In this document: one piece after another, positions 1,352 to 26,283 of the stretch
Position numbering within the stretch: position 1 is the stretch's first letter
Layout: each line of letters opens with the position of its first letter
Origin: Cylindrospermopsis raciborskii Cr2010
GTDB lineage: Bacteria; Cyanobacteriota; Cyanobacteriia; Cyanobacteriales; Nostocaceae
Length of the DNA: 32,000 nucleotides
Assembly: GCF_003367075.2 (NCBI RefSeq)
Contig: NZ_CP065936.1
Location: 2,910,001 to 2,942,000 of the forward strand
Direction of reading: 5' to 3'
Translations under genes and position numbers: made by a program
The notes under the pieces: model-generated
Database searches by the model: none
What the model was told of the DNA's origin: nothing
What the model saw: only the letters and a program-made list of their open reading frames with translations

Positions 1352-2901
1352 ATGAACCCCAAAAATCTCCCCCTGGGGATCAACACCCTAGATAAACTAC
1401 GCGGTAGCAACTGTATTTACGTGGACAAAACACGACTTGCCCTCCAGTTGATAAAACAGCCTGGAGCCTTCTTTTTGTCTCGTCCCCGACGTTTTGGCAA
1501 AAGTCTGTTTATAGATACCCTCAAGGAGATTTTTGAAGGGAATCAGAAATTATTTGAGGGGCTTTATATCCATGACCAATGGGATTGGAGTAGAAAATTC
1601 CCAGTGATTAAAATAGACTTTGCTGGTGGGGTATTAAAAAACCGACAAGAGCTGGATCTGCGCATACTGGATATTTTACACGAAAACGCAGAGTATCTGG
1701 GTGTGTCCTACGAGTCAACAGATATACCAGGAAAATTAGGAACTTTGATTCGTAAGGCCATGGCAAAATATGGAGAACGTGCGGTGGTGCTGGTGGATGA
1801 ATACGATAAACCCATCCTAGACAACATCGACAACCCACCTATTGCTGCTGAAATGAGAGAGGGACTCAAGAACCTATACTCGGTTCTCAAGCAACAGGAT
1901 GCCAACATCCAGTTCATCTTCATGACTGGAGTCACCAAATTCTCCAAAGTCAGCCTTTTTAGCGGGTAAATCAACTCACGGACATTACCATCAGTAGGGA
2001 TTTTTCCACCATTTGTGGTACACCCAGGAAGATTTTGGAGCAAAAACCTTTGCCAGCACTTGCAAGGGTAGACTGGGATAAACTGCGCCTCTGGTATAAT
2101 GGATACTCGTGGCGTGGCGATTCCGTTTATAACCCCTACGATATCTTACTGTTTATCCGTGAGGGAATGGAGTATGGCAACTACTGGTTTGAGACAGGAA
2201 ACCCCACCTTCTTAATTAAGCTATTTCAGACCAACTGCTACTTCCTCCCCAAATTAGAGCATCTAGAAGTAACCGAAGAGATTTTAAAGTCCTTTGAAAT
2301 AGAACGAATTAACCCAGTCACCCTGTTATTTCAATCTGGGTATTTGACCATTGAGAGCACCTTTACCGCTATGGAACGTTACATGTTCCGACTGAAAATT
2401 CCTAACCAGGAAGTGAAAGTCGCCTTGGGAGATCAATTAGTCAACGCCTACACGGACTTCGTTGAAGAGAAATTGGGTATTCAGAGACCCTTGTATGAAA
2501 ACTTATTTCAAGGTGATGTTAATGGATTTATCGACACAGTAAGACGCCTATTTGCTTCTATACCTTGGCGGAACTTTACCAACAATGACCTGGCTAATTT
2601 TGAGGGCTACTACGCTTCTGTGCTATATGCTTTCCTGAGTTCCTTAAATGCGCGCATCATTCCCGAAGATATCACCAACTATGGTCAAGCGGACATAACG
2701 GCCATGTTGGGTAATCATATTTACGTGATAGAAATCAAAGTAGTAGATGGGGAGAACGTAAAAGAGAACCTAGCCCTAAAACAAATTCGGGAATGTAACT
2801 ATGCGCAAAAGTATAGAGGAGAACCGGGGAGAACCGTTCATGAAGTGGGGTTGGTTTTTAGTCGCAGCAAACGTAACCTCATCCAAGCAGATTGGGAATA
2901 A
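1352..2901 (+). pseudogene. AAA-ATPase_like + PD-(D/E)XK (PDDEXK_9-type) protein, copy 1, frame-disrupted (cassettes A-A-H3)
   Basis: ORF pieces 1352-1969 and 2035-2901 are colinear with the intact 516-aa copy at 24733. Several 1-2 nt homopolymer indels are clustered at about 1966-2075, for example agcgggtaaatc versus agcgggttaaatc and gcaaaaacc versus gcaaacc. Confidence 0.75.
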
Positions 2902-2972
2902 ATTAAGATAAATATAATCAGTCACGATAAAACTGAATTAGGCTTTGAGACAATTAATTCCCTGTCTCCCCC

Positions 2973-3741
2973 ACGGACAGTCTCCAGGTGTGGGTTAATT
3001 CAACTAAATCACGGGTAATCCTTTGCAATCGCGTTTATATATATCCTGTGGGTTTGTTGGGTTTCGTTCCTCAACCCAACCTACGAAACTCTCCCACGGA
3101 CAGTCTCCAGGTAGGGGTTAATTCAACTAAATCACGGGTAATCCTTTGTAATCTCGTTTATATATATCCTGTGGGTTTGTTGGGTTTCGTTCCTCAACCC
3201 AACCTACGAAACTCTCCCACAGACAGTCTCCAGGTAGGGGTTAATTCAACTAAATCACGGGTAATCCTTTGTAATCTCGTTTATATATATCCTGTGGGTT
3301 TGTTGGGTTTCGTTCCTCAACCCAACCTACGAAACTCTCCCACAGACAGTCTCCAGGTAGGGGTTAATTCAACTAAATCACGGGTAATCCTTTGCAATCG
3401 CGTTTATATATATCCTGTGGGTTTGTTGGGTTTCGTTCCTCAACCCAACCTACGAAGCTCTCCCACAGACAGTCTCCAGGTAGGGGTTAATTCAACTAAA
3501 TCACGGGTAATCCTTTGCAATCGCGTTTATATATATCCTGTGGGTTTGTTGGGTTTCGTTCCTCAACCCAACCTACGAAGCTCTCCCACAGACAGTCTCC
3601 AGGTAGGGGTTAATTCAACTAAATCACGGGTAATCCTTTGCAATCGCGTTTATATATATCCTGTGGGTTTGTTGGGTTTCGTTCCTCAACCCAACCTACG
3701 AAGCTCTCCCACGGACAGTCTCCAGATGTGGGTTAATTCAA
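2973..3741 (+). repeat. 123-bp tandem repeat block 1, 6 full units
   Basis: The 'acggacag' phase marker occurs at 2973, 3096, 3219, 3342, 3465, 3588 and 3711, an exact 123-bp period. Each unit contains the hairpin GTTGGGTT-tcgttcctc-AACCCAAC. Confidence 0.97.
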
Positions 3742-3820
3742 ACAATTATAGTTAATCCCATAAGTAGTGCTTCGCAATCACTTTTAATTTAAAATAAATT
3801 CACATAAATAACCCCGGTGA

Positions 3821-3849: not shown

Positions 3850-3862
3850 AATAAGCATTAGT

Positions 3863-5416
3863 ATGAACCCCAAAAATCTCCCGTTGGGAATCAACACCCT
3901 GAGTATGCTACGGGAAAACAATTGTGTCTATGTGGACAAAACCGAAATAGCTCACGGTCTGATACGCATTCCTGGACGCTTCTTTCTATCTCGTCCCCGA
4001 CGTTTCGGCAAAAGTTTGTTTATAGATACCCTCAAGGAGATTTTTGAGGGGAATCAGAAATTATTTGAGGGGCTTTATATCTATGGCCAATGGGACTGGA
4101 GTAGAAAATTCCCAGTGATTAAAATAGACTTTGCTGGTGGAGTATTAAAAAACCGACAAGAGCTGGACCAAAAAATTAATGGTATTTTTTTAAAAACTGC
4201 CCAATCCCTGGGAGTGGACTATGAACTAAAGGATATTCAAGGTCGTTTCGGGGAAATTATTGCGGGTGCATATCAACGATTTGGAGAAAGGACTGTGGTG
4301 CTGGTAGATGAATATGATAAACCCATCCTGGATAATATAGACAACCCACCCGTTGCTGCTGAAATGAGAGAGGGGCTCAAGAATCTATACTCAGTCCTCA
4401 AGGAGCAGGATGCCAACCTGCAGTTTGTCTTCATGACTGGAGTCACCAAATTCTCCAAAGTCAGCCTTTTTAGCGGTTTAAACCAACTCACGGACATCAC
4501 CATTGATACTAGATACTCTTCCATCTGCGGTTACACGGAAACCGACCTCACCGAATCCTTCGGAGAACATCTTGCAGGAGCAGATCGAGAAGCAGTACGC
4601 TCTTGGTATAATGGTTATAACTGGACAGGTTCCGAGAGCGTTTATAACCCCTACGATATCCTCATGTTTATCGATAAGGGCAAGATATTTCACAACTACT
4701 GGTTTGAAACCGGGAACCCGACGTTCCTGGTTAAATTATTTCAAGCCAACAGCTACTTCCTCCCTAACCTAGAGCATCTAGAGGTAACCGAGGAGATCTT
4801 AGAGTCCTTTGAAGTAGAACGGATAAACCCCGTCACCTTGTTATTTCAATCTGGGTATTTGACCATTGATCATACCTTTATCCGTCGCCATCGCTCCATG
4901 TTTGCTCTAAAAATACCCAACATGGAAGTTCGTCTGACATTAAATGACCATTTTATCAACGCGTATACGGAAATAGTAAATGAAAAGAGTGCTATCCAAG
5001 ATAGATTATATGAGTATATGTGTAGTGGAGATTTAGAATCAACAGTGAAAGCAGTAAAGCGTCTATTTGCAGGGATTCCCTGGCGGAACTTTACTAACAA
5101 TGACCTGGCTAATTTTGAGGGTTACTATGCTTCTGTGCTATATGCTTTCTTGAGTTCCTTAAATGCGCGCATCATTCCCGAAGATATCACCAACTATGGT
5201 CAAGCGGACATAACAGCCATCTTGGGTGATCATATTTACGTGATAGAAATCAAAGTAGTAGATGGGGACAATGTAAAAGAGAACCTAGCCCTAAAACAAA
5301 TACGGGAATGTAACTATGCACAAAAGTATAGGGGAGAACCAGGTAAAACTGTTCATGAAGTGGGGTTAGTTTTTAGTCGCAGCAAACGTAATCTCATTCA
5401 AGCAGATTGGAAATAA
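3863..5416 (+). CDS. AAA-ATPase_like + PD-(D/E)XK (PDDEXK_9-type) protein, copy 2, intact 517 aa (cassettes B-B-H1)
   Basis: The N-terminus has the family hallmark LPLGINT...YVDKT...FFLSRPRRFGKSLF (GKS at aa 49-51). A Walker-B-like VVLVDEYD lies at aa 145-152. The C-terminal nuclease core is E440...D449...E462-I-K464 (YGQADITA...YVIEIKV). Confidence 0.9.
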   Translation: MNPKNLPLGINTLSMLRENNCVYVDKTEIAHGLIRIPGRFFLSRPRRFGKSLFIDTLKEIFEGNQKLFEGLYIYGQWDWSRKFPVIKIDFAGGVLKNRQELDQKINGIFLKTAQSLGVDYELKDIQGRFGEIIAGAYQRFGERTVVLVDEYDKPILDNIDNPPVAAEMREGLKNLYSVLKEQDANLQFVFMTGVTKFSKVSLFSGLNQLTDITIDTRYSSICGYTETDLTESFGEHLAGADREAVRSWYNGYNWTGSESVYNPYDILMFIDKGKIFHNYWFETGNPTFLVKLFQANSYFLPNLEHLEVTEEILESFEVERINPVTLLFQSGYLTIDHTFIRRHRSMFALKIPNMEVRLTLNDHFINAYTEIVNEKSAIQDRLYEYMCSGDLESTVKAVKRLFAGIPWRNFTNNDLANFEGYYASVLYAFLSSLNARIIPEDITNYGQADITAILGDHIYVIEIKVVDGDNVKENLALKQIRECNYAQKYRGEPGKTVHEVGLVFSRSKRNLIQADWK

Positions 5417-5487
5417 GTTAAGATAAATATAATCACTCACGATAAAACCGAATTAGGCTTTGAGACAATTAATTCCCTGTCTCCCCC

Positions 5488-6010
5488 ACGGACAGTCTCC
5501 AGGTAGGGGTTAATTCAACTAAATCACGGGTAATCCTTTGCAATCGCGTTTATATATATCCTGTGGGTTTGTTGGGTTTCGTTCCTCAACCCAACCTACG
5601 AAGCTCTCCCACGGACAGTCTCCAGGTAGGGGTTAATTCAACTAAATCACGGGTAATCCTTTGCAATCGCGTTTATATATATCCTGTGGGTTTGTTGGGT
5701 TTCGTTCCTCAACCCAACCTACGAAGCTCTCCCACGGACAGTCTCCAGGTAGGGGTTAATTCAACTAAATCACGGGTAATCCTTTGCAATCGCGTTTATA
5801 TATATCCTGTGGGTTTGTTGGGTTTCGTTCCTCAACCCAACCTACGAAACTCTCCCACGGACAGTCTCCAGGTAGGGGTTAATTCAACTAAATCACGGGT
5901 AATCCTTTGCAATCGCGTTTATATATATCCTGTGGGTTTGTTGGGTTTCGTTCCTCAACCCAACCTACGAAGCTCTCCCACGGACAGTCTCCAGGTAGGG
6001 GTTAATTCAA
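5488..6010 (+). repeat. 123-bp tandem repeat block 2, 4 full units
   Basis: Phase marker at 5488 and 5980, a difference of 492 = 4 x 123. All junctions are of the 'gtagg' type. Confidence 0.97.
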
Positions 6011-6131: not shown

Positions 6132-7675
6132 ATGAACCCCAAAAATCTCCCCCTGGGGATCAACACCCTAGATAAACTACGCGGTAGCAACTGTATTTAT
6201 GTGGACAAAACACCGCTTGCCCTCCAGTTAATAAAACAGCCTGGAGCCTTCTTTCTATCTCGTCCCCGACGTTTTGGTAAAAGTCTGTTTCTAGATACCC
6301 TCAAGGAGATTTTTGAGGGGAATCAGAAATTATTTGAGGGGCTTTATATCTATGACCAATGGGACTGGAGTAGAAAATTCCCAGTGATTAAAATAGATTT
6401 TGCTGGTGGGGTATTAAAAAACCGACAAGAGCTGGATCTGCGAATACTGGATATTTTACACGAAAACGCAGAGTATCTGGGTGTGTCCTACGAGTCAACT
6501 GATATACCGGGAAAATTAGGAACTTTGATTCGTAAGGCCATGGCAAAATATGGAGAACGTGCGGTGGTGCTAGTGGATGAATACGACAAACCCATCCTAG
6601 ACAATATAGACAACCCACCTATTGCTGCTGAAATGAGAGAGGGGCTCAAGAATCTATACTCCGTTCTCAAGCAACAGGATGCCAACCTGCAGTTTGTCTT
6701 CATGACTGGAGTCACCAAATTCTCCAAAGTCAGCCTTTTTAGCGGTTTAAACCAACTCACGGACATCACCATTGATACTAGATACTCTTCCATCTGCGGT
6801 TACACGGAAACCGACCTCACCGAATCCTTCGGAGAACATCTTGCAGGAGCAGATCGAGAAGCGGTACGCTCTTGGTATAATGGTTATAACTGGACGGGTT
6901 CCGAGAGCGTTTATAACCCCTACGACATCCTCATGTTTATCGATAAGGGCAAGATATTTCACAACTACTGGTTTGAAACCGGGAACCCGACGTTCCTGGT
7001 TAAATTATTTCAAGCCAACAGCTACTTCCTCCCTAACCTAGAGCATCTAGAGGTAACCGAGGAGATCTTAGAGTCCTTTGAAGTAGAACGGATAAACCCC
7101 GTCACCTTGTTATTTCAATCTGGGTATTTGACCATTGATCATACCTTTATCCGTCGCCATCGCCCAAGTTTGTCTAAAAATACCCAACATGAAGTTCGTC
7201 TGACATTAAATGACCATTTTATCAACGCGTATACGGAAATAGTAAATGAAAAGAGTGCTATCCAAGATAGATTATATGAGTATTGTGTAGTGAGATTTAG
7301 AATCAACAGTGAAGCAGTAAAGCGTCTATTTGCAGGGATTCCCTGGCGGAACTTTACTAACAATGACCTGCTAATTTTGAGGGTTACTATGCTTCTGTGC
7401 TATATGCTTTCTTGAGTTCCTTAAATGCGCGATCATTCGAAGATATCACCAACTATGGTCAAGCGGACATAACAGCCATCTTGGGTGATCATATTTACGT
7501 GATAGAAATCAAAGTAGTAGATGGGGACAGTGTAAAAGAGAACCTAGCCCTAAAACAAATACGGGAATGTAACTATGCACAAAAGTATAGGGGAGAACCA
7601 GGTAAAACTGTTCATGAAGTGGGGTTAGTTTTTAGTCGCAGCAAACGTAATCTCATTCAAGCAGATTGGGAATAA
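6132..7675 (+). pseudogene. AAA-ATPase_like + PD-(D/E)XK protein, copy 3, frame-disrupted (cassettes A-A-H1)
   Basis: ORF pieces 6132-7415 and 7397-7675. An indel patch at about 7160-7440 gives a net -10 nt relative to 1554 nt. The rest is near-identical to the intact copies. Confidence 0.75.
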
Positions 7676-7746
7676 GTTAAGATAAATATAATCACTCACG
7701 ATAAAACCGAATTAGGCTTTGAGACAATTAATTCCCTGTCTCCCCC

Positions 7747-8267: not shown

Positions 8268-9821
8268 ATGAACCCCAAAAATCTCCCCCTGGGGATCAAC
8301 ACCCTAGATAAACTACGCGGTAGCAACTGTATTTATGTGGACAAAACACCGCTTGCCCTCCAGTTAATAAAACAGCCTGGAGCCTTCTTTTTGTCTCGTC
8401 CCCGACGTTTTGGTAAAAGTCTGTTTATAGATACCCTCAAGGAGATTTTTGAGGGGAATCAGAAGTTATTTGAGGGGCTTTATATCTATGACCAATGGGG
8501 CTGGAGTAGAAAATTCCCAGTGATTAAAATAGATTTTGCTGGTGGGGTATTAAAAAACCGACAAGAGCTGGACCAAAAAATTAATGGTATTTTTTTAAAA
8601 ACTGCCCAATCCCTGGGAGTGGACTATGAACTAAAGGATATTCAAGGTCGTTTCGGGGAAATCATTGCTGGTGCATACCAACGATTTGGAGAAAGAACAG
8701 TGGTGCTGGTAGATGAATATGATAAACCCATCCTAGACAACATCGACAACCCAGCTATTGCTGCTGAAATGAGAGAGGGACTCAAAAACCTATACTCCGT
8801 CCTCAAGGAGCAGGATGCCAACCTGCAGTTTGTCTTCATGACTGGAGTCACCAAATTCTCCAAAGTCAGCCTTTTTAGCGGTTTAAACCAACTCACGGAC
8901 ATCACCATTGATACTAGATACTCTTCCATCTGCGGTTACACGGAAACCGACCTCACCGAATCCTTCGGAGAACATCTTGCAGGAGCAGATCGAGAAGCGG
9001 TACGCTCTTGGTATAATGGTTATAACTGGACGGGTTCCGAGAGCGTTTATAACCCCTACGACATCCTCATGTTTATCGATAAGGGCAAGATATTTCACAA
9101 CTACTGGTTTGAAACCGGAACCCGACGTTCCTGGTTAAATTATTTCAAAGCCAACAGCTACTTCCTCCCTAACCTAGAGCATCTAGGAGGTAACCGGAAT
9201 CTTAGAGTCAGCCTTGAGTAGAACGGATAACCCCGTCACCTTGTTATTTCAATCTTGGGTATTTGACCATTGATCATACCTTTATCCCGTCGCCATCGCT
9301 CCATGTTTGCTCTAAAATACCCAACATGGAAGTTCGTCTGACATTAAATGACCATTTTATCAACGGTATAGCGGAAATAGTAAATGAAAAGAGTGCTATC
9401 CAAGAAGATAGATTATATGAGTATATGTGTGTAGTGGAGATTTAGAATCAACAGTGAAAGCAGTAAAGCGTCTATTTGCAGGGATTCCTGGAACTTTACT
9501 AACAATGACCTGGCTAATTTTGAGGGTTACTATGCTTCTGTGCTATATGCTTTCTTGAGTTCCTTAAATGCGCGCATCATTCCCGAAGATATCACCAACT
9601 ATGGTCAAGCGGACATAACAGCCATCTTGGGTGATCATATTTACGTGATAGAAATCAAAGTAGTAGATGGGGACAGTGTAAAAGAGAACCTAGCCCTAAA
9701 ACAAATACGGGAATGTAACTATGCACAAAAGTATAGGGGAGAACCAGGTAAAACTGTTCATGAAGTGGGGTTAGTTTTTAGTCGCAGCAAACGTAATCTC
9801 ATTCAAGCAGATTGGGAATAA
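8268..9821 (+). pseudogene. AAA-ATPase_like + PD-(D/E)XK protein, copy 4, frame-disrupted (cassettes A-B-H1)
   Basis: ORF pieces 8268-9221, 9263-9445 and 9540-9821. There are many small indels at about 9115-9500. The total length is still 1554 nt, so the indels compensate each other. Confidence 0.75.
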
Positions 9822-9892
9822 GTTAAGATAAATATAATCACTCACGATAAAACCGAATTAGGCTTTGAGACAATTAATTCCCTGTCTCCCCC

Positions 9893-10539: not shown

Positions 10540-12093
10540 ATGAACCCCAAAAATCTCCCCCTGGGGATCAACACCCTAGATAAACTACGCGGTAGCAACT
10601 GTATTTATGTGGACAAAACACCGCTTGCCCTCCAGTTAATAAAACAGCCTGGAGCCTTCTTTTTGTCTCGTCCCCGACGTTTTGGTAAAAGTCTGTTTCT
10701 AGATACCCTCAAGGAGATTTTTGAGGGGAATCAGAAATTATTTGAGGGGCTTTATATCCATGACCAATGGGACTGGAGTAGAAAATTCCCAGTGATTAAA
10801 ATAGATTTTGCTGGTGGGGTATTAAAAAACCGACAAGAGCTGGACCAAAAAATTAATGGTATTTTTTTAAAAACTGCCCAGTCCTTGGGAGTGGACTATG
10901 AACTAGAGGACATTCAAGGTCGTTTCGGAGAAATCATTGCTGGTGCATATCAACGATTTGGAGAAAGGACTGTGGTGCTGGTAGATGAATATGATAAACC
11001 CATCCTAGACAACATCGACAACCCAGCTATTGCTGCTGAAATGAGAGAGGGACTCAAAAACCTATACTCCGTCCTCAAGGAGCAGGATGCCAACCTGCAG
11101 TTTGTCTTCATGACTGGAGTCACCAAATTCTCCAAAGTCAGCCTTTTTAGCGGTTTAAACCAACTCACGGACATCACCATTGATACTAGATACTCTTCCA
11201 TCTGCGGTTACACGGAAACCGACCTCACCGAATCCTTCGGAGAACATCTTGCAGCAGCAGATCGAGAAGCGGTACGCTCTTGGTATAATGGTTATAACTG
11301 GACAGGTTCCGAGAGCGTTTATAACCCCTACGATATCCTCATGTTTATCGATAAGGGCAAGATATTTCACAACTACTGGTTTGAGACAGGTAGTCCCAGT
11401 TTTCTAGTCAAGCTATTCCAAGCCAAGTGCTACTTCCTCCCCAACCTAGAGCATCTAGAGGTAACCGAGGAGATCTTAGAGTCCTTTGAAGTAGAACGAA
11501 TTAACCCAGTTACCTTGTTATTTCAATCTGGGTATTTGACCATTGAGAGCACCTTTACCGCTATGGAACGTTACATGTTCCGACTGAAAATCCCCAACCG
11601 GGAGGTAAAAGTCGCCTTGGGAGATCAATTAGTCAACGCCTACACGGACTTCGTTGAAGAGAAATTGGGTATTCAGAGACCCTTGTATGAAAACTTATTT
11701 CAAGGTGATGTTAATGGATTTATCGACACAGTAAGACGCCTATTTGCTTCTATACCTTGGCGTAACTTTACCAACAATGACCTGGCTAATTTTGAGGGCT
11801 ACTACGCTTCTGTGCTATATGCTTTCTTGAGTTCCTTAAATGCGCGCATCATTCCCGAAGATATCACCAACTATGGTCAAGCGGACATAACGGCCATGTT
11901 GGGTAATCATATTTACGTGATAGAAATCAAAGTAGTAGATGGGGAGAACGTAAAAGAGAACCTAGCCCTAAAACAAATACGGGAATGTAACTATGCGCAA
12001 AAGTATAGGGGAGAACCGGGGAGAACCGTTCATGAAGTGGGGTTGGTTTTCAGTCGCAGCAAACGTAACCTCATCCAAGCAGATTGGGAATAA
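10540..12093 (+). CDS. AAA-ATPase_like + PD-(D/E)XK protein, copy 5, intact 517 aa (cassettes A-B-H2)
   Basis: Full-length ORF with the same motifs as copy 2. Confidence 0.9.
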   Translation: MNPKNLPLGINTLDKLRGSNCIYVDKTPLALQLIKQPGAFFLSRPRRFGKSLFLDTLKEIFEGNQKLFEGLYIHDQWDWSRKFPVIKIDFAGGVLKNRQELDQKINGIFLKTAQSLGVDYELEDIQGRFGEIIAGAYQRFGERTVVLVDEYDKPILDNIDNPAIAAEMREGLKNLYSVLKEQDANLQFVFMTGVTKFSKVSLFSGLNQLTDITIDTRYSSICGYTETDLTESFGEHLAAADREAVRSWYNGYNWTGSESVYNPYDILMFIDKGKIFHNYWFETGSPSFLVKLFQAKCYFLPNLEHLEVTEEILESFEVERINPVTLLFQSGYLTIESTFTAMERYMFRLKIPNREVKVALGDQLVNAYTDFVEEKLGIQRPLYENLFQGDVNGFIDTVRRLFASIPWRNFTNNDLANFEGYYASVLYAFLSSLNARIIPEDITNYGQADITAMLGNHIYVIEIKVVDGENVKENLALKQIRECNYAQKYRGEPGRTVHEVGLVFSRSKRNLIQADWE

Positions 12094-17041: not shown

Positions 17042-17080
17042 ATTAAGATAAACTAGGATAATAAGCACATATTCTTTATT

Positions 17081-18632
17081 ATGAACCCCAAAAATCTCCC
17101 CCTGGGGATCAACACCCTAGATAAACTACGCGGTAGCAACTGTATTTACGTGGACAAAACACGACTTGCACTCCAGTTGATAAAACAACCTGGAGCCTTC
17201 TTTCTATCTCGTCCGCGACGTTTTGGCAAAAGTCTGTTTATAGATACCCTCAAGGAGATTTTTGAAGGGAATAAGAAATTATTTGAGGGGCTTTATATCC
17301 ATGACCAGTGGGACTGGAGTAGAAAATTCCCAGTGATTAAAATAGATTTTGCTGGTGGAGTATTAAAAAACCGACAAGAGCTGGACCAAAAAATTAATGG
17401 TATTTTTTTAAAAACTGCCCAGTCCCTGGGAGTGGACTATGAACTAGAGGACATTCAAGGTCGTTTCGGAGAAATCATTGCTGGTGCATACCAACGATTT
17501 GGAGAAAGAACAGTGGTGCTGGTGGATGAATACGACAAACCCATCCTAGACAACATCGACAACCCAGCTATTGCTGCTGAAATGAGAGAGGGACTCAAAA
17601 ACCTATACTCAGTCCTCAAGGAACAGGATGCCAACATCCAGTTCATCTTCATGACTGGAGTCACCAAATTCTCCAAAGTCAGCCTTTTCAGTGGGTTAAA
17701 TCAACTCACCGACATTACCATCAGTAGGGACTTTTCCACCATTTGTGGGTATCACCCAGGAAGATTTGGAGCAAACCTTTCGCCCAGCACTTGCAAGGGG
17801 TAGACTGGGATAAACTGCGCCTCTGGTATAATGGATACTCGTGGCGTGGCGATTCCGTTTATAACCCCTACGATATCTTACTGTTTATCCGTGAGGGAAT
17901 GGAGTATGGCAACTACTGGTTTGAGACAGGAAACCCCACCTTCTTAATTAAGCTATTTCAGACCAACTGCTACTTCCTCCCCAAATTAGAGCATCTAGAA
18001 GTAACCGAAGAGATTTTAAAGTCCTTTGAAATAGAACGAATTAACCCAGTCACCCTGTTATTTCAATCTGGGTATTTGACCATTGAGAGCACCTTTACTG
18101 CTATGGAACGTTACATGTTCCGACTGAAAATTCCCAACCAGGAAGTGAAAGTCGCCTTGGGAGATCAATTAGTCAACGCCTACACGGACTTCGTTGAAGA
18201 GAAATTGGGTATTCAGAGACCCTTGTATGAAAACTTATTTCAAGGTGATGTTAATGGATTTATCGACACAGTAAGACGCCTATTTGCTTCTATACCTTGG
18301 CGGAACTTTACTAACAATGACCTGGCTAATTTTGAGGGTTACTATGCTTCTGTGCTATATGCTTTCTTGAGTTCCTTAAATGCGCGCATCATTCCCGAAG
18401 ATATCACCAACTATGGTCAAGCGGACATAACAGCCATCTTAGGTGATCATATTTACGTGATAGAAATCAAAGTAGTAGATGGGGACAATGTAAAAGAGAA
18501 CCTAGCCCTAAAACAAATACGGGAATGTAACTATGCGCAAAAGTATAGAGGAGAACCAGTAAAACTGTTCATGAAGTGGGGTTGGTTTTTAGTCGCAGCA
18601 AACGTAATCTCATTCAAGCAGATTGGGAATAA
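17081..18632 (+). pseudogene. AAA-ATPase_like + PD-(D/E)XK protein, copy 9, frame-disrupted (cassettes A-B-H3)
   Basis: ORF pieces 17081-17803 and 17743-18642. Indels lie at about 17750-17800 and in a second patch from about 18555 that continues into the non-coding linker and the first repeat unit (to about 18790). The gene is only 39 nt downstream of copy 8, with no repeat block and no TTGAAT box between them. Confidence 0.75.
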
Positions 18633-18696
18633 ATTAAGATAAATATAATCACTCACGATAAAAGATTAGGCTTCTGATTAATTCACCTGTCTCCCC

Positions 18697-19597: not shown

Positions 19598-21144
19598 ATG
19601 AACCCCAAAAATCTCCCGTTGGGAATCAACACCCTGAGTATGCTACGGGAAAACAATTGTGTCTATGTGGACAAAACCGAAATAGCTCACGGTCTGATCC
19701 GCATTCCTGGACGCTTCTTTCTATCTCGTCCCCGACGTTTCGGCAAAAGTCTGTTTATAGATACCCTCAAGGAGATTTTTGAAGGGAATCAGAAATTATT
19801 TGAGGGGCTTTATATCCATGACCAGTGGGACTGGAGTAGAAAATTCCCAGTGATTAAAATAGATTTTGCTGGTGGGGTATTAAAAAACCGACAAGAGCTG
19901 GATCTGCGCATACTGGATATTTTGCACGAAAACGCAGAGCATCTGGATGTTCATATAAGTCAACTGATATCCGGGAAAATTGGGAACTTTTTGATTCGTA
20001 GGCATGGCAAAATATGGACAACGTCGATGGTCAGTGGATGAATGACAACCCATCCTACGACAACATCGACAACCCATCTATTGCTGCTGAAATGAGAGAG
20101 GGACTCAAAAACCTATACTCCGTCCTCAAGCAACAGGATGCCAACATCCAGTTCGTCTTCATGACTGGAGTCACCAAATTCTCCAAAGTCAGCCTTTTTA
20201 GTGGTTTAAACCAACTCACGGACATCACCATTGATACCAGATACTCCTCCATCTGTGGTTACACGGAAACCGATCTGACCGAATCCTTCGGAGAACATCT
20301 TGTAGGAGCAGATCGAGAAGCAGTACGCTCCTGGTATAATGGTTATAACTGGACAGGTTCCGAGAGCGTTTACAACCCCTACGATATCCTCATGTTTATC
20401 GATAAGAGGAAGATATTTCGCAACTACTGGTTTGAGACAGGTAGTCCCAGTTTTCTAGTCAAGCTATTCCAAGCCAAGTGCTACTTCCTCCCCAACCTAG
20501 AGCATCTAGAGGTAACCGAGGAGATCCTAGAGTCCTTTGAAGTAGAACGGATAAACCCAGTTACCTTGTTATTTCAATCTGGGTATTTGACCATTGAGAG
20601 CACCTTTACCGCTATGGAACGTTACATGTTCCGACTGAAAATCCCCAACCGGGAGGTAAAAGTCGCCTTGGGAGATCAATTAGTCAACGCCTACACGGAC
20701 TTCGTTGAAGAGAAATTGGGTATTCAGAGACCCTTGTATGAAAACTTATTTCAAGGTGATGTTAATGGATTTATCGACACAGTAAGACGCCTATTTGCTT
20801 CTATACCTTGGCGTAACTTTACCAACAATGACCTGGCTAATTTTGAGGGCTACTACGCTTCTGTGCTATATGCTTTCTTGAGTTCCTTAAATGCGCGCAT
20901 CATTCCCGAAGATATCACCAACTATGGTCAAGCGGACATAACGGCCATCTTAGGTGATCATATTTACGTGATAGAAATCAAAGTAGTAGATGGGGAGAAT
21001 GTAAAAGAGAACCTAGCCCTAAAACAAATTCGGGAATGTAACTATGCGCAAAAGTATAGGGGAGAACCGGGGATAACCGTTCATGAAGTGGGGTTGGTTT
21101 TTAGTCGCAGCAAACGTAACCTCATCCAAGCAGATTGGGAATAA
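19598..21144 (+). pseudogene. AAA-ATPase_like + PD-(D/E)XK protein, copy 10, frame-disrupted (cassettes B-A-H2)
   Basis: ORF pieces 19598-20041 and 20014-21144. A dense indel patch lies at about 19945-20060, for example ggatgttcatat versus ggatgtgtcatat and aactttttgatt versus aactttgatt. Confidence 0.75.
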
Positions 21145-21215
21145 ATTAAGATAAACATAATCAGTCACGATAAAACCGACTTAGGCTTTGAGACAATTAA
21201 TTCCCTGTCTCCCCC

Positions 21216-21861
21216 ACGGACAGTCTCCAGGTAGGGGTTAATTCAACTAAATCACGGCTAATCCTTTGCAATCGCGTTTATATATATCCTGTGGGTTTGT
21301 TGGGTTTCGTTCCTCAACCCAACCTACGAAGCTCCCCCACGGACAGTCTCCAGATGTGGGTTAATTCAACTAAATCACGGGTAATCCTTTGCAATCGCGT
21401 TTATATATATCCTGTGGGTTTGTTGGGTTTCGTTCCTCAACCCAACCTACGAAGCTCCCCCACGGACAGTCTCCAGATGTGGGTTAATTCAACTAAATCA
21501 CGGGTAATCCTTTGCAATCGCGTTTATATATATCCTGTGGGTTTGTTGGGTTTCGTTCCTCAACCCAACCTACGAAGCTCTCCCACGGACAGTCTCCAGG
21601 TAGGGGTTAATTCAACTAAATCACGGGTAATCCTTTGCAATCGCGTTTATATATATCCTGTGGGTTTGTTGGGTTTCGTTCCTCAACCCAACCTACGAAG
21701 CTCTCCCACGGACAGTCTCCAGGTAGGGGTTAATTCAACTAAATCACGGGTAATCCTTTGCAATCGCGTTTATATATATCCTGTGGGTTTGTTGGGTTTC
21801 GTTCCTCAACCCAACCTACGAAGCTCCCCCACGGACAGTCTCCAGGTAGGGGTTAATTCAA
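21216..21861 (+). repeat. 123-bp tandem repeat block 8, 5 full units
   Basis: Phase marker at 21216 and 21831, a difference of 615 = 5 x 123. Confidence 0.97.
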
Positions 21862-21982
21862 ATAATTATAGTTAATCCCATAAGGAGTGCTTCGCAATCG
21901 CTTTTAATTTAAAATAAATTCACATAAATAACCCCGGTGATTGAATTAGAGATAAACTAGAGTTAGGATAATAAGCATTAGT

Positions 21983-23530
21983 ATGAACCCCAAAAATCTC
22001 CCGTTGGGAATCAACACCCTGAGTATGCTACGGGAAAACAATTGTGTCTATGTGGACAAAACCGAAATAGCTCACGGTCTGATACGCATTCCTGGACGCT
22101 TCTTTCTATCTCGTCCCCGACGTTTTGGCAAAAGTCTGTTTATAGATACCCTCAAGGAGATTTTTGAAGGGAATCAGAAATTATTTGAGGGGCTTTATAT
22201 CCATGACCAGTGGGACTGGAGTAGAAAATTCCCAGTGATTAAAATAGACTTTGCTGGTGGGGTATTAAAAAACCGACAAGAGCTGGATCTGCGCATACTG
22301 GATATTTTGCACGAAAACGCAGAGCATCTGGATGTGTCATATAAGTCAACTGATATACCGGGAAAATTGGGAACTTTGATTCGTAAGGCCATGGCAAAAT
22401 ATGGACAACGTGCGGTGGTGCTAGTGGATGAATATGACAAACCCATCCTAGACAACATCGACAACCCATCTATTGCTGCTGAAATGAGAGAGGGACTCAA
22501 AAACCTATACTCCGTCCTCAAGCAACAGGATGCCAACATCCAGTTCGTCTTCATGACTGGAGTCACCAAATTCTCCAAAGTCAGCCTTTTTAGCGGTTTA
22601 AACCAACTCACGGACATCACCATTGATACTAGATACTCCTCCATCTGTGGTTACACGGAAACTGACCTCACCGAATCCTTCGGAGAACATCTTGTAGGAG
22701 CAGATCGAGAAGCAGTACGCTCTTGGTATAATGGTTATAACTGGACAGGTTCCGAGAGCGTTTATAACCCCTACGATATCCTCATGTTTATCGATAGGCG
22801 AATTTTACACTACTGGTTTTGAAACCGGGAACCCGACGTTCCTGGTTAAATTATTTCAAGCCAACAGCTACTTCCTCCCTAACCTAGACATCTAGAGGTA
22901 ACTGAGGAGGATCTTAGAGTCCTTTGAAGTAGAACGGATAAACCCGTCACCTTGTTATTTCAATCTGGGTATTTGACCATTGATCATACCTTTATCCGTC
23001 GCCATCGCTCCATGTTTGCTCTAAAAATACCCAACATGGAAGTTCGTCTGACATTAAATGACCATTTTATCAACGCGTATACGGAAATAGTAAATGAAAA
23101 GAGTGCTATCCAAGATAGATTATATGAGTATATGTGTAGTGGAGATTTAGAATCAACAGTGAAAGCAGTAAAGCGTCTATTTGCAGGGATTCCCTGGCGG
23201 AACTTTACCAACAATGACCTGGCTAATTTCGAGGGCTACTACGCTTCTGTGCTATATGCTTTCCTGAGTTCCTTAAATGCGCGCATCATTCCCGAAGATA
23301 TCACCAACTATGGTCAAGCGGACATAACGGCCATCTTAGGTGATCATATTTACGTGATAGAAATCAAAGTAGTAGATGGGGAGAATGTAAAAGAGAACCT
23401 AGCCCTAAAACAAATTCGGGAATGTAACTATGCGCAAAAGTATAGAGGAGAACCGGGGAGAACCGTTCATGAAGTGGGGTTGGTTTTTAGTCGCAGCAAA
23501 CGTAACCTCATTCAAGCAGATTGGGAATAA
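21983..23530 (+). pseudogene. AAA-ATPase_like + PD-(D/E)XK protein, copy 11, frame-disrupted (cassettes B-A-H1)
   Basis: ORF pieces 21983-22822 and 22952-23530, with an indel patch at about 22795-22950. Confidence 0.75.
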
Positions 23531-23601
23531 ATTAAGATAAACATAATCAGTCACGATAAAACCGGCTTAGGCTTTGAGACAATTAATTCCCTGTCTCCCC
23601 C

Positions 23602-24611
23602 ACGGACAGTCTCCAGGTAGGGGTTAATTCAACTAAATCACGGGTAATCCTTTGCAATCGCGTTTATATATATCCTGTGGGTTTGTTGGGTTTCGTTCCT
23701 CAACCCAACCTACGAAGCTCCCCCACGGACAGTCTCCAGATGTGGGTTAATTCAACTAAATCACGGGTAATCCTTTGCAATCGCGTTTATATATATCCTG
23801 TGGGTTTGTTGGGTTTCGTTCCTCAACCCAACCTACGAAGCTCTCCCACGGACAGTCTCCAGGTAGGGGTTAATTCAACTAAATCACGGGTAATCCTTTG
23901 CAATCGCGTTTATATATATCCTGTGGGTTTGTTGGGTTTCGTTCCTCAACCCAACCTACGAAGCTCTCCCACGGACAGTCTCCAGGTAGGGGGTTAATAA
24001 ATCACGGGTAATCCTTTGCAATCGCGTTTATATATATCCTGTGGGTTTGTTGGGTTTCGTTCCTCAACCCAACCTACGAAGCTCTCCCACGGACAGTCTC
24101 CAGGTAGGGGTTAATTCAACTAAATCACGGGTAATCCTTTGCAATCGCGTTTATATATATCCTGTGGGTTTGTTGGGTTTCGTTCCTCAACCCAACCTAC
24201 GAAGCTCTCCCACGGACAGTCTCCAGGTAGGGGTTAATTCAACTAAATCACGGGTAATCCTTTGCAATCGCGTTTATATATATCCTGTGGGTTTGTTGGG
24301 TTTCGTTCCTCAACCCAACCTACGAAGCTCCCCCACGGACAGTCTCCAGATGTGGGTTAATTCAACTAAATCACGGGTAATCCTTTGCAATCGCGTTTAT
24401 ATATATCCTGTGGGTTTGTTGGGTTTCGTTCCTCAACCCAACCTACGAAGCTCTCCCACGAACAGTCTCCAGGTAGGGGTTAATTCAACTAAATCACGGG
24501 TAATCCTTTGCAATCGCGTTTATATATATCCTGTGGGTTTGTTGGGTTTCGTTCCTCAACCCAACCTACGAAGCTCTCCCACGGACAGTCTCCAGATGTG
24601 GGTTAATTCAA
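23602..24611 (+). repeat. 123-bp tandem repeat block 9, 8 units
   Basis: Phase marker at 23602 and 24581, a difference of 979 = 8 x 123 - 5. One unit has a small deletion at about 23990 ('tagggggttaataaatc'). Confidence 0.95.
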
Positions 24612-24732
24612 ACAATTATAGTTAATCCCATAAGGAGTGCTTCGCAATCACTTTTAATTTAAAATAAATTCACATAAATAACCCCGGTGATTGAATTAGA
24701 GATAAACTAGAGTTAGGATAATAAGCATTAGT

Positions 24733-26283
24733 ATGAACCCCAAAAATCTCCCGTTGGGAATCAACACCCTGAGTATGCTACGGGAAAACAATTGTGTCTA
24801 TGTGGACAAAACCGAAATAGCTCACCGTCTGATACGCATTCCTGGACGCTTCTTTCTATCTCGTCCTCGACGTTTCGGCAAAAGTTTGTTTATAGATACC
24901 CTCAAGGAGATTTTTGAGGGGAATCAAAAATTATTTGAGGGGCTTTATATCCATGATCAATGGGACTGGAGTAGAAAATTCCCAGTGATTAAAATAGACT
25001 TTGCTGGTGGGGTATTAAAAAACCGACAAGAACTGGATCTGCGCATACTGGATATTTTACACGACAATGCGGAGTATCTGGGTGTGTCCTACGAGTCAAT
25101 TGATATACCAGGAAAATTAGGAACTTTGATTCGTAAGGCCATGGCAAAATATGGAGAACGTGCGGTGGTGCTGGTGGATGAATACGATAAACCCATCCTA
25201 GACAACATCGACAACCCGCCTATTGCTGCTGAAATGAGAGAGGGACTCAAGAACCTATACTCGGTTCTCAAGCAACAGGATGCCAACATCCAGTTCATCT
25301 TCATGACTGGAGTCACCAAATTCTCCAAAGTCAGCCTTTTTAGCGGGTTAAATCAACTCACGGACATTACCATCAGTAGGGATTTTTCCACCATTTGTGG
25401 GTACACCCAGGAAGATTTGGAGCAAACCTTTGCCCAGCACTTGCAAGGGGTAGACTGGGATAAACTGCGCCTCTGGTATAATGGATACTCGTGGCGTGGC
25501 GATTCCGTTTATAACCCCTACGATATCTTACTGTTTATCCGTGAGGGAATGGAGTATGGCAACTACTGGTTTGAGACAGGAAACCCCACCTTCTTAATTA
25601 AGCTATTTCAGACCAACTGCTACTTCCTCCCCAAATTAGAGCATCTAGAAGTAACCGAAGAGATTTTAAAGTCCTTTGAAATAGAACGAATTAATCCAGT
25701 CACCCTGTTATTTCAATCTGGGTATTTGACCATTGAGAGCACCTTTACTGCTATGGAACGTTACATGTTCCGACTGAAAATTCCCAACCAGGAAGTGAAA
25801 GTCGCCTTGGGAGATCAATTAGTCAACGCCTACACTGACTTCGTTGAAGAGAAATTGGGTATTCAGAGACCCTTGTATGAAAACTTATTTCAAGGTGATG
25901 TTAGTAGATTTATAGACACAGTAAGAAGCCTGTTTGCTTCTATCCCTTGGCGTAATTTTACCAACAATAACCTGGCTAATTTCGAGGGCTACTACGCTTC
26001 TGTGCTATATGCTTTCCTGAGTTCCTTAAATGCGCGCATCATTCCCGAAGATATCACCAATTACGGTCAAGCGGACATAACAGCCATCTTGGGTAATCAT
26101 ATTTACGTGATAGAAATCAAAGTAGTAGATGGGGAGAACGTAAAAGAGAACCTAGCCCTAAAGCAAATACGGGAATGTAACTATGCACAAAAGTATAGAG
26201 GAGAACCAGGTAAAACCGTTCATGAAGTAGGCTTGGTTTTCAGTCGCAGCAAACGTAACCTCATCCAAGCAGATTGGGAATAA
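24733..26283 (+). CDS. AAA-ATPase_like + PD-(D/E)XK protein, copy 12, intact 516 aa (cassettes B-A-H3)
   Basis: Full-length ORF with the same motifs as copy 2. Confidence 0.9.
   Translation: MNPKNLPLGINTLSMLRENNCVYVDKTEIAHRLIRIPGRFFLSRPRRFGKSLFIDTLKEIFEGNQKLFEGLYIHDQWDWSRKFPVIKIDFAGGVLKNRQELDLRILDILHDNAEYLGVSYESIDIPGKLGTLIRKAMAKYGERAVVLVDEYDKPILDNIDNPPIAAEMREGLKNLYSVLKQQDANIQFIFMTGVTKFSKVSLFSGLNQLTDITISRDFSTICGYTQEDLEQTFAQHLQGVDWDKLRLWYNGYSWRGDSVYNPYDILLFIREGMEYGNYWFETGNPTFLIKLFQTNCYFLPKLEHLEVTEEILKSFEIERINPVTLLFQSGYLTIESTFTAMERYMFRLKIPNQEVKVALGDQLVNAYTDFVEEKLGIQRPLYENLFQGDVSRFIDTVRSLFASIPWRNFTNNNLANFEGYYASVLYAFLSSLNARIIPEDITNYGQADITAILGNHIYVIEIKVVDGENVKENLALKQIRECNYAQKYRGEPGKTVHEVGLVFSRSKRNLIQADWE

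What the first reader, a model, noticed from the sequence alone, without database searches (positions are those of the whole stretch)
1352..26283. Paralogs form a near-complete, non-redundant combinatorial set of cassette alleles (11 of 12 possible 2x2x3 combinations, each used once)
From the translations, almost all differences fall in three blocks that exist in only 2-3 sharply different versions. The blocks are separated by segments that are near-identical in every copy. V1 (aa 14-40) is either A 'DKLRGSNCIYVDKT[PR]LALQLIKQPGAF' or B 'SMLRENNCVYVDKTEIAH[GR]LIRIPGRF'. V2 (aa 103-144) is either A 'LRILDILHENAE..VSY.STDIPGKLGTLIRKAMAKYG' or B 'QKINGIFLKTAQSLGVDYEL.DIQGRFGEIIAGAYQRFG'. The C-terminal block (aa 215-404) has three haplotypes. 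H1 is 'IDTRYSS..NPTFLVKLFQANSYF..DHTFIRRHRSMFALKIPNMEVRLTLNDHF'. H2 is 'IDTRYSS..SPSFLVKLFQAKCYF..ESTFTAMERYMFRLKIPNREVKVALGDQL'. H3 is 'ISRDFST..VDWDKLRLWYNGYSWRGDS..NPTFLIKLFQTNCYF..ESTFTAMERYMF'. Copy by copy: 1=A-A-H3, 2=B-B-H1, 3=A-A-H1, 4=A-B-H1, 5=A-B-H2, 6=B-B-H3, 8=A-A-H2, 9=A-B-H3, 10=B-A-H2, 11=B-A-H1, 12=B-A-H3. All 11 are different. The only missing combination is B-B-H2, and the 5'-truncated copy 7 carries an H2 C-terminal half, so it could be the remnant of that twelfth combination. Under a naive uniform model, 11 draws from 12 classes being all distinct has probability 12!/12^11, about 6e-4 (hand arithmetic, simplistic model). The predicted catalytic motifs (GKS aa 49-51, VVLVDEYD aa 145-152, E440/D449/E462-x-K464) all lie in invariant segments. 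This looks like a recombination-shuffled specificity library, with gene conversion homogenising the conserved blocks and selection keeping each combination once.
Basis: seen in the sequence. Interest (0 to 1): 0.92.

Follow-up and report, generated by a model that had tools for sequence, protein, structure and literature searches.

The report
Recombining tandem array of ATPase-nuclease genes
A cyanobacterium (Cylindrospermopsis raciborskii) carries a row of 12 copies of one ATPase-nuclease gene of unknown function. Recombination has re-assorted a few very old sequence cassettes among these copies, but the striking "every combination exactly once" pattern does not hold in sister strains.

Summary
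Window 1352-26283 is a tandem array of 11 full-length copies plus one 3' fragment of a DUF1703-family gene (Pfam AAA-ATPase_like + PDDEXK_9).

The mosaic comes from recombination (PHI 0/1000; at least 33-36 events). It is finer than three blocks. The cassettes are ancient: synonymous sites are saturated and dN/dS is about 0.35-0.5. They sit in regions that vary across the whole family.

The "selected non-redundant library" reading is not supported.
- With the observed cassette frequencies held fixed, P(all distinct) is 0.016, not 6e-4.
- Strain CP091284 (flanks 99.9-100% identical) has 10 distinct of 11. These include the "missing" B-B-H2 and a duplicated A-B-H3.
- Strain CP073250 has 8 distinct of 11 typed copies, including two identical copies.
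- The "invariant" segments are conserved as protein (dN/dS about 0.05), but their dS is 0.13-0.53.

Six window copies carry frameshifts that look like unpolished long-read errors.

Recombining paralog expansions are already published for this family (Cardinium, Rickettsia). This is a new, unusually large tandem example of a known kind. The protein's function is unknown.

The parts
1352..2901 (+). Copy 1, A-A-H3; frame broken by indels at gene nt 615-714
   Evidence: the counterpart m1 in CP091284 is an intact 516-aa gene
3863..5416 (+). Copy 2, B-B-H1; intact, 517 aa. Within it: V1 = 3902-3982, Walker A = 3992-4015, V2 = 4169-4300, Walker B = 4295-4318, H = 4502-5077, nuclease E440..K464 = 5180-5254
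   Evidence: Pfam PF09820 E 7.8e-60 and PF08011 E 3.7e-17; identical to m2; motifs
6132..7675 (+). Copy 3, A-A-H1; frame broken by 10 single-base deletions at gene nt 1032-1306
8268..9821 (+). Copy 4, A-B-H1; 24 indel columns at gene nt 849-1222
10540..12093 (+). Copy 5, A-B-H2; intact, 517 aa; no one-to-one counterpart in CP091284
12889..14439 (+). Copy 6, B-B-H3; intact, 516 aa; no one-to-one counterpart in CP091284
14526..15350 (+). Copy 7, a 3' fragment (about gene nt 790-1554) of H2 type, joined directly to a minisatellite unit
   Evidence: absent from CP091284
15488..17041 (+). Copy 8, A-A-H2; intact, 517 aa
   Evidence: protein identical to m7
17081..18632 (+). Copy 9, A-B-H3; 3 indels; starts 39 bp after copy 8 with no minisatellite between them
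19598..21144 (+). Copy 10, B-A-H2; 13 indel columns at gene nt 353-461
21983..23530 (+). Copy 11, B-A-H1; 10 indel columns at gene nt 814-960
24733..26283 (+). Copy 12, B-A-H3; intact, 516 aa
   Evidence: identical to m11
2966..3741 (.). Intergenic 123-bp minisatellite, 6.3 units. Similar arrays lie at 5481-6010, 7740-8146, 9886-10418, 12158-12779, 18694-19432, 21209-21865 and 23595-24611
   Evidence: Tandem Repeats Finder; unit number differs between strains; no Rfam match; fold no more stable than shuffles

Best explanation
The region is a tandem array of paralogous DUF1703-family genes in Cylindrospermopsis (Raphidiopsis) raciborskii. Each gene encodes an N-terminal AAA+/STAND-like ATPase, a helical middle part and a C-terminal PD-(D/E)XK nuclease.

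The array evolves by ordinary homologous recombination between its own copies.
- Unequal crossing-over changes copy number and makes chimeric genes. It can start in the 123-bp minisatellite spacers or in the conserved gene segments.
- Short-patch gene conversion moves pieces from one copy to another.

Three regions are poorly constrained throughout the family. They are the N-terminal helices before Walker A, a helix hairpin between strand 2 and the Walker B strand, and the lid/linker before the nuclease. Within the array these regions have diverged to 55-65% nucleotide identity. Inferred: recombination can no longer start inside them, so they persist as 2-3 ancient cassettes that move only as whole units. 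The conserved segments between them are held by purifying selection and partly homogenised, and they serve as the crossover sites.

The result is near-free assortment of cassettes at roughly balanced frequencies. Under that state, 11 copies are expected to show about 8 of the 12 combinations. This strain shows 11, a modest upper-tail outcome. The sister strains show 10 and 8.

Shown here: family membership, the mosaic, pervasive recombination, the age of the cassettes, purifying selection, and strain-to-strain turnover. Inferred: the recombination pathway, and the idea that divergence blocks recombination inside cassettes. Unknown: what the proteins do. An ATP-driven nuclease acting in genetic conflict or defence is the most plausible guess.
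For: - Family: Pfam PF09820 + PF08011. The RPRRFGKS, DEYD and E/D/ExK motifs match the family description in PMC1913061.
- Organism: source names.
- Block-wise divergence.
- Recombination: PHI 0/1000. Rm is at least 33 (CP091284) and 36 (window), with intervals spread along the whole gene, not at fixed sites.
- Cassette age and constraint: pS 0.60-0.76 and dN/dS 0.35-0.53 in V1 and V2 (dS saturated in Ha and Hc); dS 0.13-0.53 and dN/dS about 0.05 in conserved segments.
- Cassette classes are recognisable at 86-95% identity in a more distant genome and in R. brookii D9.
- The variable blocks coincide with family-wide variable regions: column entropy 1.0-1.7 bits (Hb 0.83) against 0.4-0.6 in the conserved ATPase-core segments.
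- Turnover between near-identical strains: 12, 11 and about 16-17 copies, different minisatellite lengths, and different central copies built as patchworks of segments found in other copies.
- Redundant combinations occur in sister strains.
- Free-assortment permutation P = 0.016, 0.11 and 0.60.
- The same three-module mosaic appears in two other tandem arrays at unrelated loci in the genus.
- Intragenic recombination among DUF1703 paralogs is already reported in Cardinium and Rickettsia (PMC6387759).
- All 11 copies in CP091284 and all 11 typed in CP073250 are intact ORFs.
Against: - Simple neutral drift simulations of unequal crossing-over plus block conversion give only 5-7 distinct combinations for 11 copies, and 10 or more in under 1% of states. 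The real arrays (11, 10, at least 8; also 7/7 and 5/5 elsewhere) are therefore more diverse and more balanced than pure drift predicts. Something may favour diversity. Candidates are selection, faster deletion of fully identical neighbours, or collapse of identical copies during assembly.
- The three arrays at this locus share ancestry, so they are not independent tests.
- About 11 kb in the middle of the CP073250 array was not seen.
- Fine-scale differences between the window and CP091284 could partly be polishing artefacts, because the window assembly has low-quality patches in the array.
Confidence: 0.65

Rival explanations
1. Selected combinatorial repertoire. The cassettes are recognition modules of an ATPase-nuclease sensor, and selection maintains a maximally diverse set of module combinations, though not strictly one of each.
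For: - Arrays are more diverse and more balanced than neutral drift simulations predict.
- All copies are distinct in the window (11/11), in L087 (7/7) and in L088 (5/5).
- Both cassette classes of each block persist across strains and related species.
- All copies are intact, with dN/dS about 0.05 in the cores, in two good assemblies.
- Catalytic motifs are invariant while predicted helical regions vary.
- There is weak fold similarity to the STAND ATPase Apaf-1.
Against: - Duplicated combinations occur in sister strains, including an exact duplicate.
- Permutation P values are unremarkable except for the window.
- dN/dS is below 1 in all cassettes.
- The variable regions are simply the least constrained regions of the family.
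- No PADLOC or NCBIfam defence model matches the protein.
- A more distant strain has a decayed array with truncated copies and an IS insertion.
Confidence: 0.2
2. Assembly artefact. The combinations are chimeric paths through a collapsed repeat graph and do not exist physically.
For: - The window assembly has error-rich patches confined to the array.
- Copies 5-7 are patchworks of 150-450 bp segments that match different copies of CP091284.
- Short-read assemblies break at this locus.
Against: - Nine of the 11 combinations, in the same order, are reproduced in the independent assembly CP091284.1, where every ORF is intact. Copies 2 and 12 are identical base for base.
- The same cassettes and mosaics are present in CP073250.1.
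- Raw indel errors imply long-read scaffolding, which preserves block-level linkage over 1.5 kb.
Confidence: 0.05
3. Decaying junk array. Most copies are pseudogenes drifting without function, and the pattern is meaningless debris.
For: - Six of the 11 full-length copies in the window are frameshifted and one copy is truncated.
- A more distant strain has a degraded array.
Against: - The frameshifts are dense 1-2 bp indels with almost no accompanying substitutions. Copy 4 has 24 indel columns against 1 substitution in 370 bp.
- The frameshifts are absent from CP091284, whose flanks are 99.9-100% identical.
- Conserved segments show dN/dS about 0.05.
Confidence: 0.05

Closest known systems
DUF1703 paralog expansions in Cardinium cCpun and midge Rickettsia (Siozios et al. 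2019, PMC6387759)
   Same: Same protein family (PF09820 + PF08011). Many paralogs per genome. Intragenic recombination among paralogs detected by RDP and PHI. No full homogenisation. Function unknown.
   Different: The Cardinium paralogs are widely divergent (mean 39% amino-acid identity), come from a draft assembly, and were not described as one tandem array. Here 11-17 copies are 75-100% identical at nucleotide level and strictly tandem. They are separated by a 123-bp minisatellite and built from only 2-3 discrete cassettes per module. The host is a free-living cyanobacterium.
Neisseria opa gene family (modular exchange of the SV, HV1 and HV2 regions among 11-12 loci). Recalled from general knowledge, not tested here.
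   Same: About a dozen paralogs. Discrete hypervariable modules are separated by conserved segments. Modules are re-assorted by homologous recombination, and the repertoire differs between closely related strains.
   Different: The opa loci are dispersed and phase-variable and encode surface adhesins under immune selection. Here the genes are tandem and cytoplasmic, encode an ATPase-nuclease, and show no evidence of phase variation or positive selection.
Tandem paralog clusters with copy-number variation by unequal crossing-over, for example the Staphylococcus aureus lpl lipoprotein cluster. Recalled from general knowledge, not tested here.
   Same: A head-to-tail array whose copy number and composition change between strains through recombination in conserved sequence.
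   Different: Different protein family. Near-free assortment of ancient cassettes is not a reported feature of those clusters, as far as I know.
STAND/AAA+ ATPase-nuclease defence proteins (Avs/AVAST type; Mrr-NACHT fusions noted in PMC1913061)
   Same: A P-loop ATPase with helical and winged-helix parts fused to a PD-(D/E)XK nuclease. The best structural match is the Apaf-1 NB-ARC module (E 5e-5). The C-terminal domain matches the CinB nuclease.
   Different: No C-terminal repeat sensor domain. The nuclease is C-terminal. There is no match to any PADLOC model. The structural similarity is weak (TM 0.33/0.17). No defence phenotype is known.

Membership tests
DUF1703 family (AAA-ATPase_like + PDDEXK_9) | N-terminal PF09820 domain above the Pfam gathering score | tested here: met
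   202.6-205.8 bits against a cutoff of 26.1; residues 7-203
DUF1703 family (AAA-ATPase_like + PDDEXK_9) | C-terminal PF08011 PD-(D/E)XK domain above the gathering score | tested here: met
   62.7-63.2 bits against a cutoff of 25.5; residues 417-513
DUF1703 family (AAA-ATPase_like + PDDEXK_9) | Atypical Walker A RPRRFGKS and Walker B DEYD (Knizewski et al. 2007) | tested here: met
   Present at residues 44-51 and 149-152 in all 16 intact copies checked. The family description is read.
DUF1703 family (AAA-ATPase_like + PDDEXK_9) | Nuclease motifs E (I), D (II), ExK (III) and Q (IV) | tested here: met
   E419, E440, D449, E462, K464 and Q479 are invariant or nearly invariant (Q479) in the 74-sequence alignment. 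The E440..D449..E462-x-K464 stretch is identical in all copies.
DUF1703 family (AAA-ATPase_like + PDDEXK_9) | ATPase and nuclease activity | not testable with these tools
   No biochemical data. No solved structure found by sequence search.
Recombining modular multigene family (opa-like behaviour) | Discrete variable modules separated by conserved segments | tested here: met
Recombining modular multigene family (opa-like behaviour) | Statistical evidence of intragenic recombination and the same module in different combinations | tested here: met
   PHI 0/1000; Rm 33-36; combination tables
Recombining modular multigene family (opa-like behaviour) | Repertoire differs between closely related strains | tested here: met
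   Three strains with 98.9-100% identical flanks have different arrays
Recombining modular multigene family (opa-like behaviour) | Modules determine specificity or phenotype | not testable with these tools
   No functional data.
Programmed cassette systems (shufflon, DGR, pilE/pilS or vls type) | Dedicated recombinase or reverse transcriptase at the locus | tested here: not met
   Other ORFs in the 32-kb window are DUF29, Uma2, small PD-(D/E)XK proteins and one 83-aa ORF that was not scanned. Flanking genes in the sister strains are CobN, a 2OG oxygenase and a dynamin-like GTPase.
Programmed cassette systems (shufflon, DGR, pilE/pilS or vls type) | One expression site plus silent partial cassettes, or fixed recombination sites | tested here: not met
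   All copies are full-length genes with a start codon, and most have the same upstream sequence. Recombination intervals are spread along the whole gene.
Known anti-phage defence systems (PADLOC models; Avs-type STAND) | Match to a defence-system protein model | tested here: not met
   No PADLOC hit at E up to 0.01 and no NCBIfam hit
Known anti-phage defence systems (PADLOC models; Avs-type STAND) | STAND NTPase fold with a separate repeat sensor domain | tested here: inconclusive
   Foldseek top hit is Apaf-1 at E 5e-5 but TM is only 0.33/0.17. The protein is 517 aa with no repeat domain.

The most novel reading that the evidence does not exclude
The array, like the similar arrays elsewhere in the genus, is a selectively maintained combinatorial repertoire of small STAND-like ATPase-nuclease sensors. 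In this reading, three exchangeable helical modules set target or partner specificity. Homologous recombination within the array then acts as a diversity generator, giving each strain a different, highly diverse set. It would be a germline-encoded, module-shuffled innate immune repertoire in a bacterium.
Probability: 0.2. Interest if true: 0.75.

Novelty: new member of a known kind. Interest (0 to 1): 0.4.

Why it matters
DUF1703 proteins are abundant across bacteria, often in many copies, and have no known function. This array shows which parts of the protein are free to be swapped and which are fixed. That points to where specificity may lie and gives a natural set of module swaps for experiments.

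The locus is also a clear example of how a tandem gene family can hold ancient cassettes in near-free assortment. It is a hotspot of structural change between bloom-forming C. raciborskii strains that are otherwise 99.5-100% identical around it, which could make it useful as a strain marker.

The claim that would have made it remarkable, selection for exactly one of each combination, does not survive comparison with sister strains.

Tried and rejected
- Rfam scan of the whole window: no match.
- RNA folding of the 123-bp unit on both strands: no more stable than shuffles, z about -0.7.
- Promoter/terminator scan of one repeat period: fewer sites than in shuffles.
- PADLOC and NCBIfam for the array protein: no hit.
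- PDB sequence search: no relative.
- tblastn against phage records: only 31-35% identical hits in unannotated faecal virome contigs, uninformative.
- Draft and metagenome contigs carrying close homologues (L089, L090, R. brookii L003/L006): each ends at the first copy, so the array is not assembled there.
- Exact-protein look-ups for copies 5 and 6: not on record, so the window's own genome is not in the collection.
- Literature searches for this array in C. raciborskii and for InterPro identifiers of the family: nothing relevant.
- I considered and rejected a site-specific or programmed mechanism, because there is no recombinase and breakpoints are spread along the gene.
- I considered and rejected real pseudogenisation of six copies, because of the indel-to-substitution ratio and the comparison with CP091284.
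- I tried to reconstruct the order of duplication events from neighbour relationships. Sharing of blocks between neighbours is not significant in the window or in CP091284 (P 0.73 and 0.56), so no history could be inferred.

Full report
**What is there.** The window holds twelve head-to-tail + strand copies of a roughly 1554-bp gene between 1352 and 26283. Eleven are full length and one (14526-15350) is a 3' fragment. Most copies are separated by arrays of 3-8 units of a 123-bp minisatellite. Copies 8 and 9 are only 39 bp apart.

The encoded protein matches Pfam AAA-ATPase_like (PF09820, E about 1e-60) and PDDEXK_9 (PF08011, E about 1e-17). This is the 'DUF1703' family described by Knizewski et al. 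2007 (PMC1913061). All intact copies carry its atypical Walker A RPRRFGKS, its Walker B DEYD and the E/D/ExK nuclease motifs. Close homologues are named Cylindrospermopsis raciborskii by their sources.

**Check of the observation.**
- V1 cassette A occurs in copies 1, 3, 4, 5, 8, 9 and cassette B in 2, 6, 10, 11, 12.
- V2 cassette A occurs in copies 1, 3, 8, 10, 11, 12 and cassette B in 2, 4, 5, 6, 9.
- H1 occurs in copies 2, 3, 4, 11; H2 in 5, 7, 8, 10; H3 in 1, 6, 9, 12.

All 11 full-length copies differ, and B-B-H2 is absent. Divergence is clearly block-wise. Cassette classes are only 55-65% identical at nucleotide level in V1, V2, Ha and Hc, and 81-84% in Hb. 87% of variable amino-acid columns lie in the three blocks.

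Four qualifications apply.
1. Only copies 2, 5, 6, 8 and 12 are open reading frames. The other six carry clustered 1-2 bp indels.
2. H is composite: Ha has two types, Hb three and Hc two, joined in only three ways. V2-A and V2-B also have sub-types. '12 classes' is therefore one of several possible granularities. A finer one makes distinctness trivial, and a coarser one makes it impossible.
3. The segments between blocks are conserved as protein but not as DNA, with dS of 0.13-0.53.
4. The figure 6.4e-4 assumes uniform multinomial sampling. Shuffling cassettes among copies with the observed, balanced frequencies held fixed gives P(all distinct) = 0.016.

**Sister genomes.** Exact-protein look-ups led to the same locus in complete genomes. 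The same genes lie upstream (CobN, a 2OG oxygenase, a dynamin-like GTPase) and downstream (DUF29, Uma2).

*CP091284.1* has flanks 100% (1351 bp) and 99.9% identical to the window. Its array has 11 copies, all intact, and no fragment. Copies 1-4 and 8-12 of the window have one-to-one counterparts with the same combinations in the same order, and copies 2 and 12 are identical.

The central copies differ. The window has A-B-H2, B-B-H3 and the fragment. CP091284 has A-B-H3 and B-B-H2. So the 'missing' twelfth combination exists in the sister strain, and A-B-H3 occurs twice there: 10 distinct of 11.

*CP073250.1* has flanks 98.9-99.7% identical to the window. Its array is about 36 kb, roughly 16-17 copies, of which 11 kb in the middle was not retrievable. 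The 11 fully typed copies give 8 combinations. B-B-H1, A-B-H2 and B-A-H1 each occur twice, with 16, 9 and 0 nucleotide differences within the pairs, and all ORFs are intact.

Under free assortment with fixed frequencies, the probabilities of seeing at least the observed number of combinations are 0.016, 0.11 and 0.60.

**The frameshifts.** The window's indels are dense runs of single-base insertions and deletions confined to patches of 100-400 bp. Copy 4, for example, has 24 indel columns and one substitution within gene nt 849-1222. There are none in the unique flanks and none in CP091284. This is the signature of unpolished long-read consensus in a repeat, not of gene decay. It follows that fine-scale differences between the two assemblies should be read with care. 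The block-level combinations, however, are corroborated by an independent assembly.

**How the mosaic arises.** Recombination is pervasive. The PHI statistic is lower than in all 1000 permutations, and the four-gamete minimum is 33 events among the 11 CP091284 copies and 36 in the window. The intervals are spread along the whole gene, including inside the 'conserved' segments and inside the blocks. There is no recombinase or reverse transcriptase at the locus and there are no fixed breakpoints, so general homologous recombination is the economical mechanism (inference).

Unequal crossing-over is visible as differences between strains in copy number and minisatellite unit number, and as exact or near-exact duplicates in CP073250. 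Patchy conversion is visible in copies 5-7, which are mosaics of 150-450 bp stretches that each best match a different CP091284 copy.

The cassettes are old. Synonymous sites are saturated (pS 0.60-0.76) and dN is 0.37-0.74 in V1, V2, Ha and Hc (Hb: dN 0.05-0.09). dN/dS is about 0.35-0.5 in V1 and V2 and cannot be computed for Ha and Hc, so there is no sign of positive selection. The same cassette classes are recognisable in a more distant genome and in R. brookii D9.

The conserved segments have dN/dS of about 0.05 and a lower but substantial dS. This fits purifying selection plus partial homogenisation. The variable blocks coincide with the regions that vary most among distant homologues: column entropy 1.0-1.7 bits (Hb 0.83) against 0.4-0.6 in the conserved ATPase-core segments. 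I infer that these poorly constrained regions diverged past the point where recombination can initiate within them, and now behave as indivisible cassettes flanked by recombination-competent sequence.

**Is there still something to explain?** Partly. Simple drift simulations of unequal crossing-over and block conversion, conditioned on all cassettes surviving, give 5-7 distinct combinations for 11 copies and 10 or more in under 1% of states. The real arrays are thus more diverse, and their cassette frequencies more balanced, than such drift predicts.

Two further tandem arrays of the same family, at unrelated loci in C. raciborskii LYXA01000001.1 and C. curvispora CP060822.1, show the same three-module mosaic. 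All 7 and all 5 of their copies are distinct, though neither result is individually significant.

Possible causes are selection for diversity, preferential recombinational loss of fully identical neighbours, or collapse of identical copies in assemblies. My models are crude and the arrays share ancestry, so I treat this as a lead and not a result.

**Function.** No function is known for the family. The only relevant papers in the library describe it as a predicted AAA+ ATPase plus PD-(D/E)XK nuclease (PMC1913061) and report paralog expansions with frequent intragenic recombination in Cardinium and Rickettsia symbionts (PMC6387759).

An AlphaFold model (mean pLDDT 79) places the blocks as follows:
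- V1 lies in the N-terminal helices before Walker A.
- V2 lies in a helix hairpin between strand 2 and the Walker B strand.
- Hc lies in a beta-hairpin plus a three-helix region before the nuclease.

Its best PDB matches are the STAND ATPase Apaf-1 (E 5e-5, TM 0.33/0.17) and, for the C-terminus, the CinB nuclease. No PADLOC or NCBIfam model matches. An ATP-dependent nuclease acting in genetic conflict is a reasonable guess, supported only by architecture and by the nuclease-rich neighbourhood. Small clusters of 2-4 adjacent paralogs occur in 12 of 80 loci from other phyla, so tandem clustering is a family habit. This array is an extreme case.

**Verdict.** The pattern is really in the sequence, and the mosaic is genuine and recombination-driven. 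The 'each combination exactly once, kept by selection' reading is not supported, because sister strains at the same locus carry duplicates and the 'missing' class. This is a new, large, tandem member of a known kind: a recombining DUF1703 paralog family, with opa-like modular exchange. It is moderately interesting because of the near-free assortment of ancient cassettes and its fast turnover between strains.

Noticed in passing
window 1966-2065, 7163-7437, 9116-9489, 17752-17781 and 18557, 19950-20058, 22796-22942 (approximate patches inside copies 1, 3, 4, 9, 10, 11): Dense 1-2 bp indels with almost no substitutions. They are absent from the near-identical strain CP091284.1 and from the window's unique flanks. 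They look like unpolished long-read consensus errors, so the source assembly is locally unreliable at base level.
   Followed up: yes
window 2966-3741, 5481-6010, 7740-8146, 9886-10418, 12158-12779, 18694-19432, 21209-21865, 23595-24611: A 123-bp minisatellite sits between gene copies. Its unit contains an 8-bp-stem hairpin (GTTGGGTT...AACCCAAC), and its 3' part resembles the unique sequence upstream of each gene start. It creates long spurious ORFs (for example 2988-3755, 255 aa). Among the loci fetched it occurs only at this locus of C. raciborskii. There is no Rfam match and no unusual fold stability.
   Followed up: partly
window 14440-15487: Copy 7 is a 3' gene fragment joined directly to a minisatellite unit. 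It is followed by a 137-bp spacer. CP091284.1 has no such fragment. This is either an illegitimate junction or a local misassembly.
   Followed up: partly
window 17041-17081: Copies 8 and 9 are only 39 bp apart, with no minisatellite and no copy of the usual upstream region. The same is true in CP091284.1 (spacers of 37 and 39 bp). These genes are probably co-transcribed with the copy before them.
   Followed up: no
window 26456-27067, 28065-28676, 28693-29310: Three paralogous proteins of about 203 aa lie just downstream of the array. They have no Pfam or NCBIfam match, but match the PADLOC model PD_DExK ('CAS-associated') at E 1e-48 to 1e-51. No CRISPR array or cas gene was seen in the window.
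   Followed up: partly
window 29594-30493 (repeat at 30334-30438): A Uma2-family gene contains a 21-bp coding tandem repeat, (EQEKLRA)n. The sister strain's protein is 42 residues longer (341 against 299 aa), so the repeat number varies between strains.
   Followed up: partly
window 27683-28030 and 30809-31624: The 115-aa ORF shares its N-terminal sequence with the 271-aa Uma2 protein downstream (a repeat of about 316 bp at 97% identity). It looks like a truncated Uma2 paralog.
   Followed up: no
L087 1-11554 (LYXA01000001.1) and L088 6300-15182 (C. curvispora CP060822.1): Further tandem arrays of the same gene family lie at unrelated chromosomal loci. One has at least 8 copies with 27-60 bp spacers, and the other has 5 copies. 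Both show the same three-module mosaic. In L088 neighbouring copies 1-4 differ stepwise by one module (AAA, AAB, ABB, BBB).
   Followed up: partly
L085 (GCA_002321945.1, NPIL01000001.1): A more divergent genome has a degraded version of the array. It contains truncated copies, inserted DUF29 genes and a Tn5-like transposase gene, so the array is not maintained everywhere.
   Followed up: no
window minus strand inside the copies, e.g. 15700-16149, 22195-22644, 6488-6793: Antisense ORFs of 83-149 aa recur in the V2-to-cons2 region of each copy. They are most likely a by-product of the repeated sequence and not genes.
   Followed up: no
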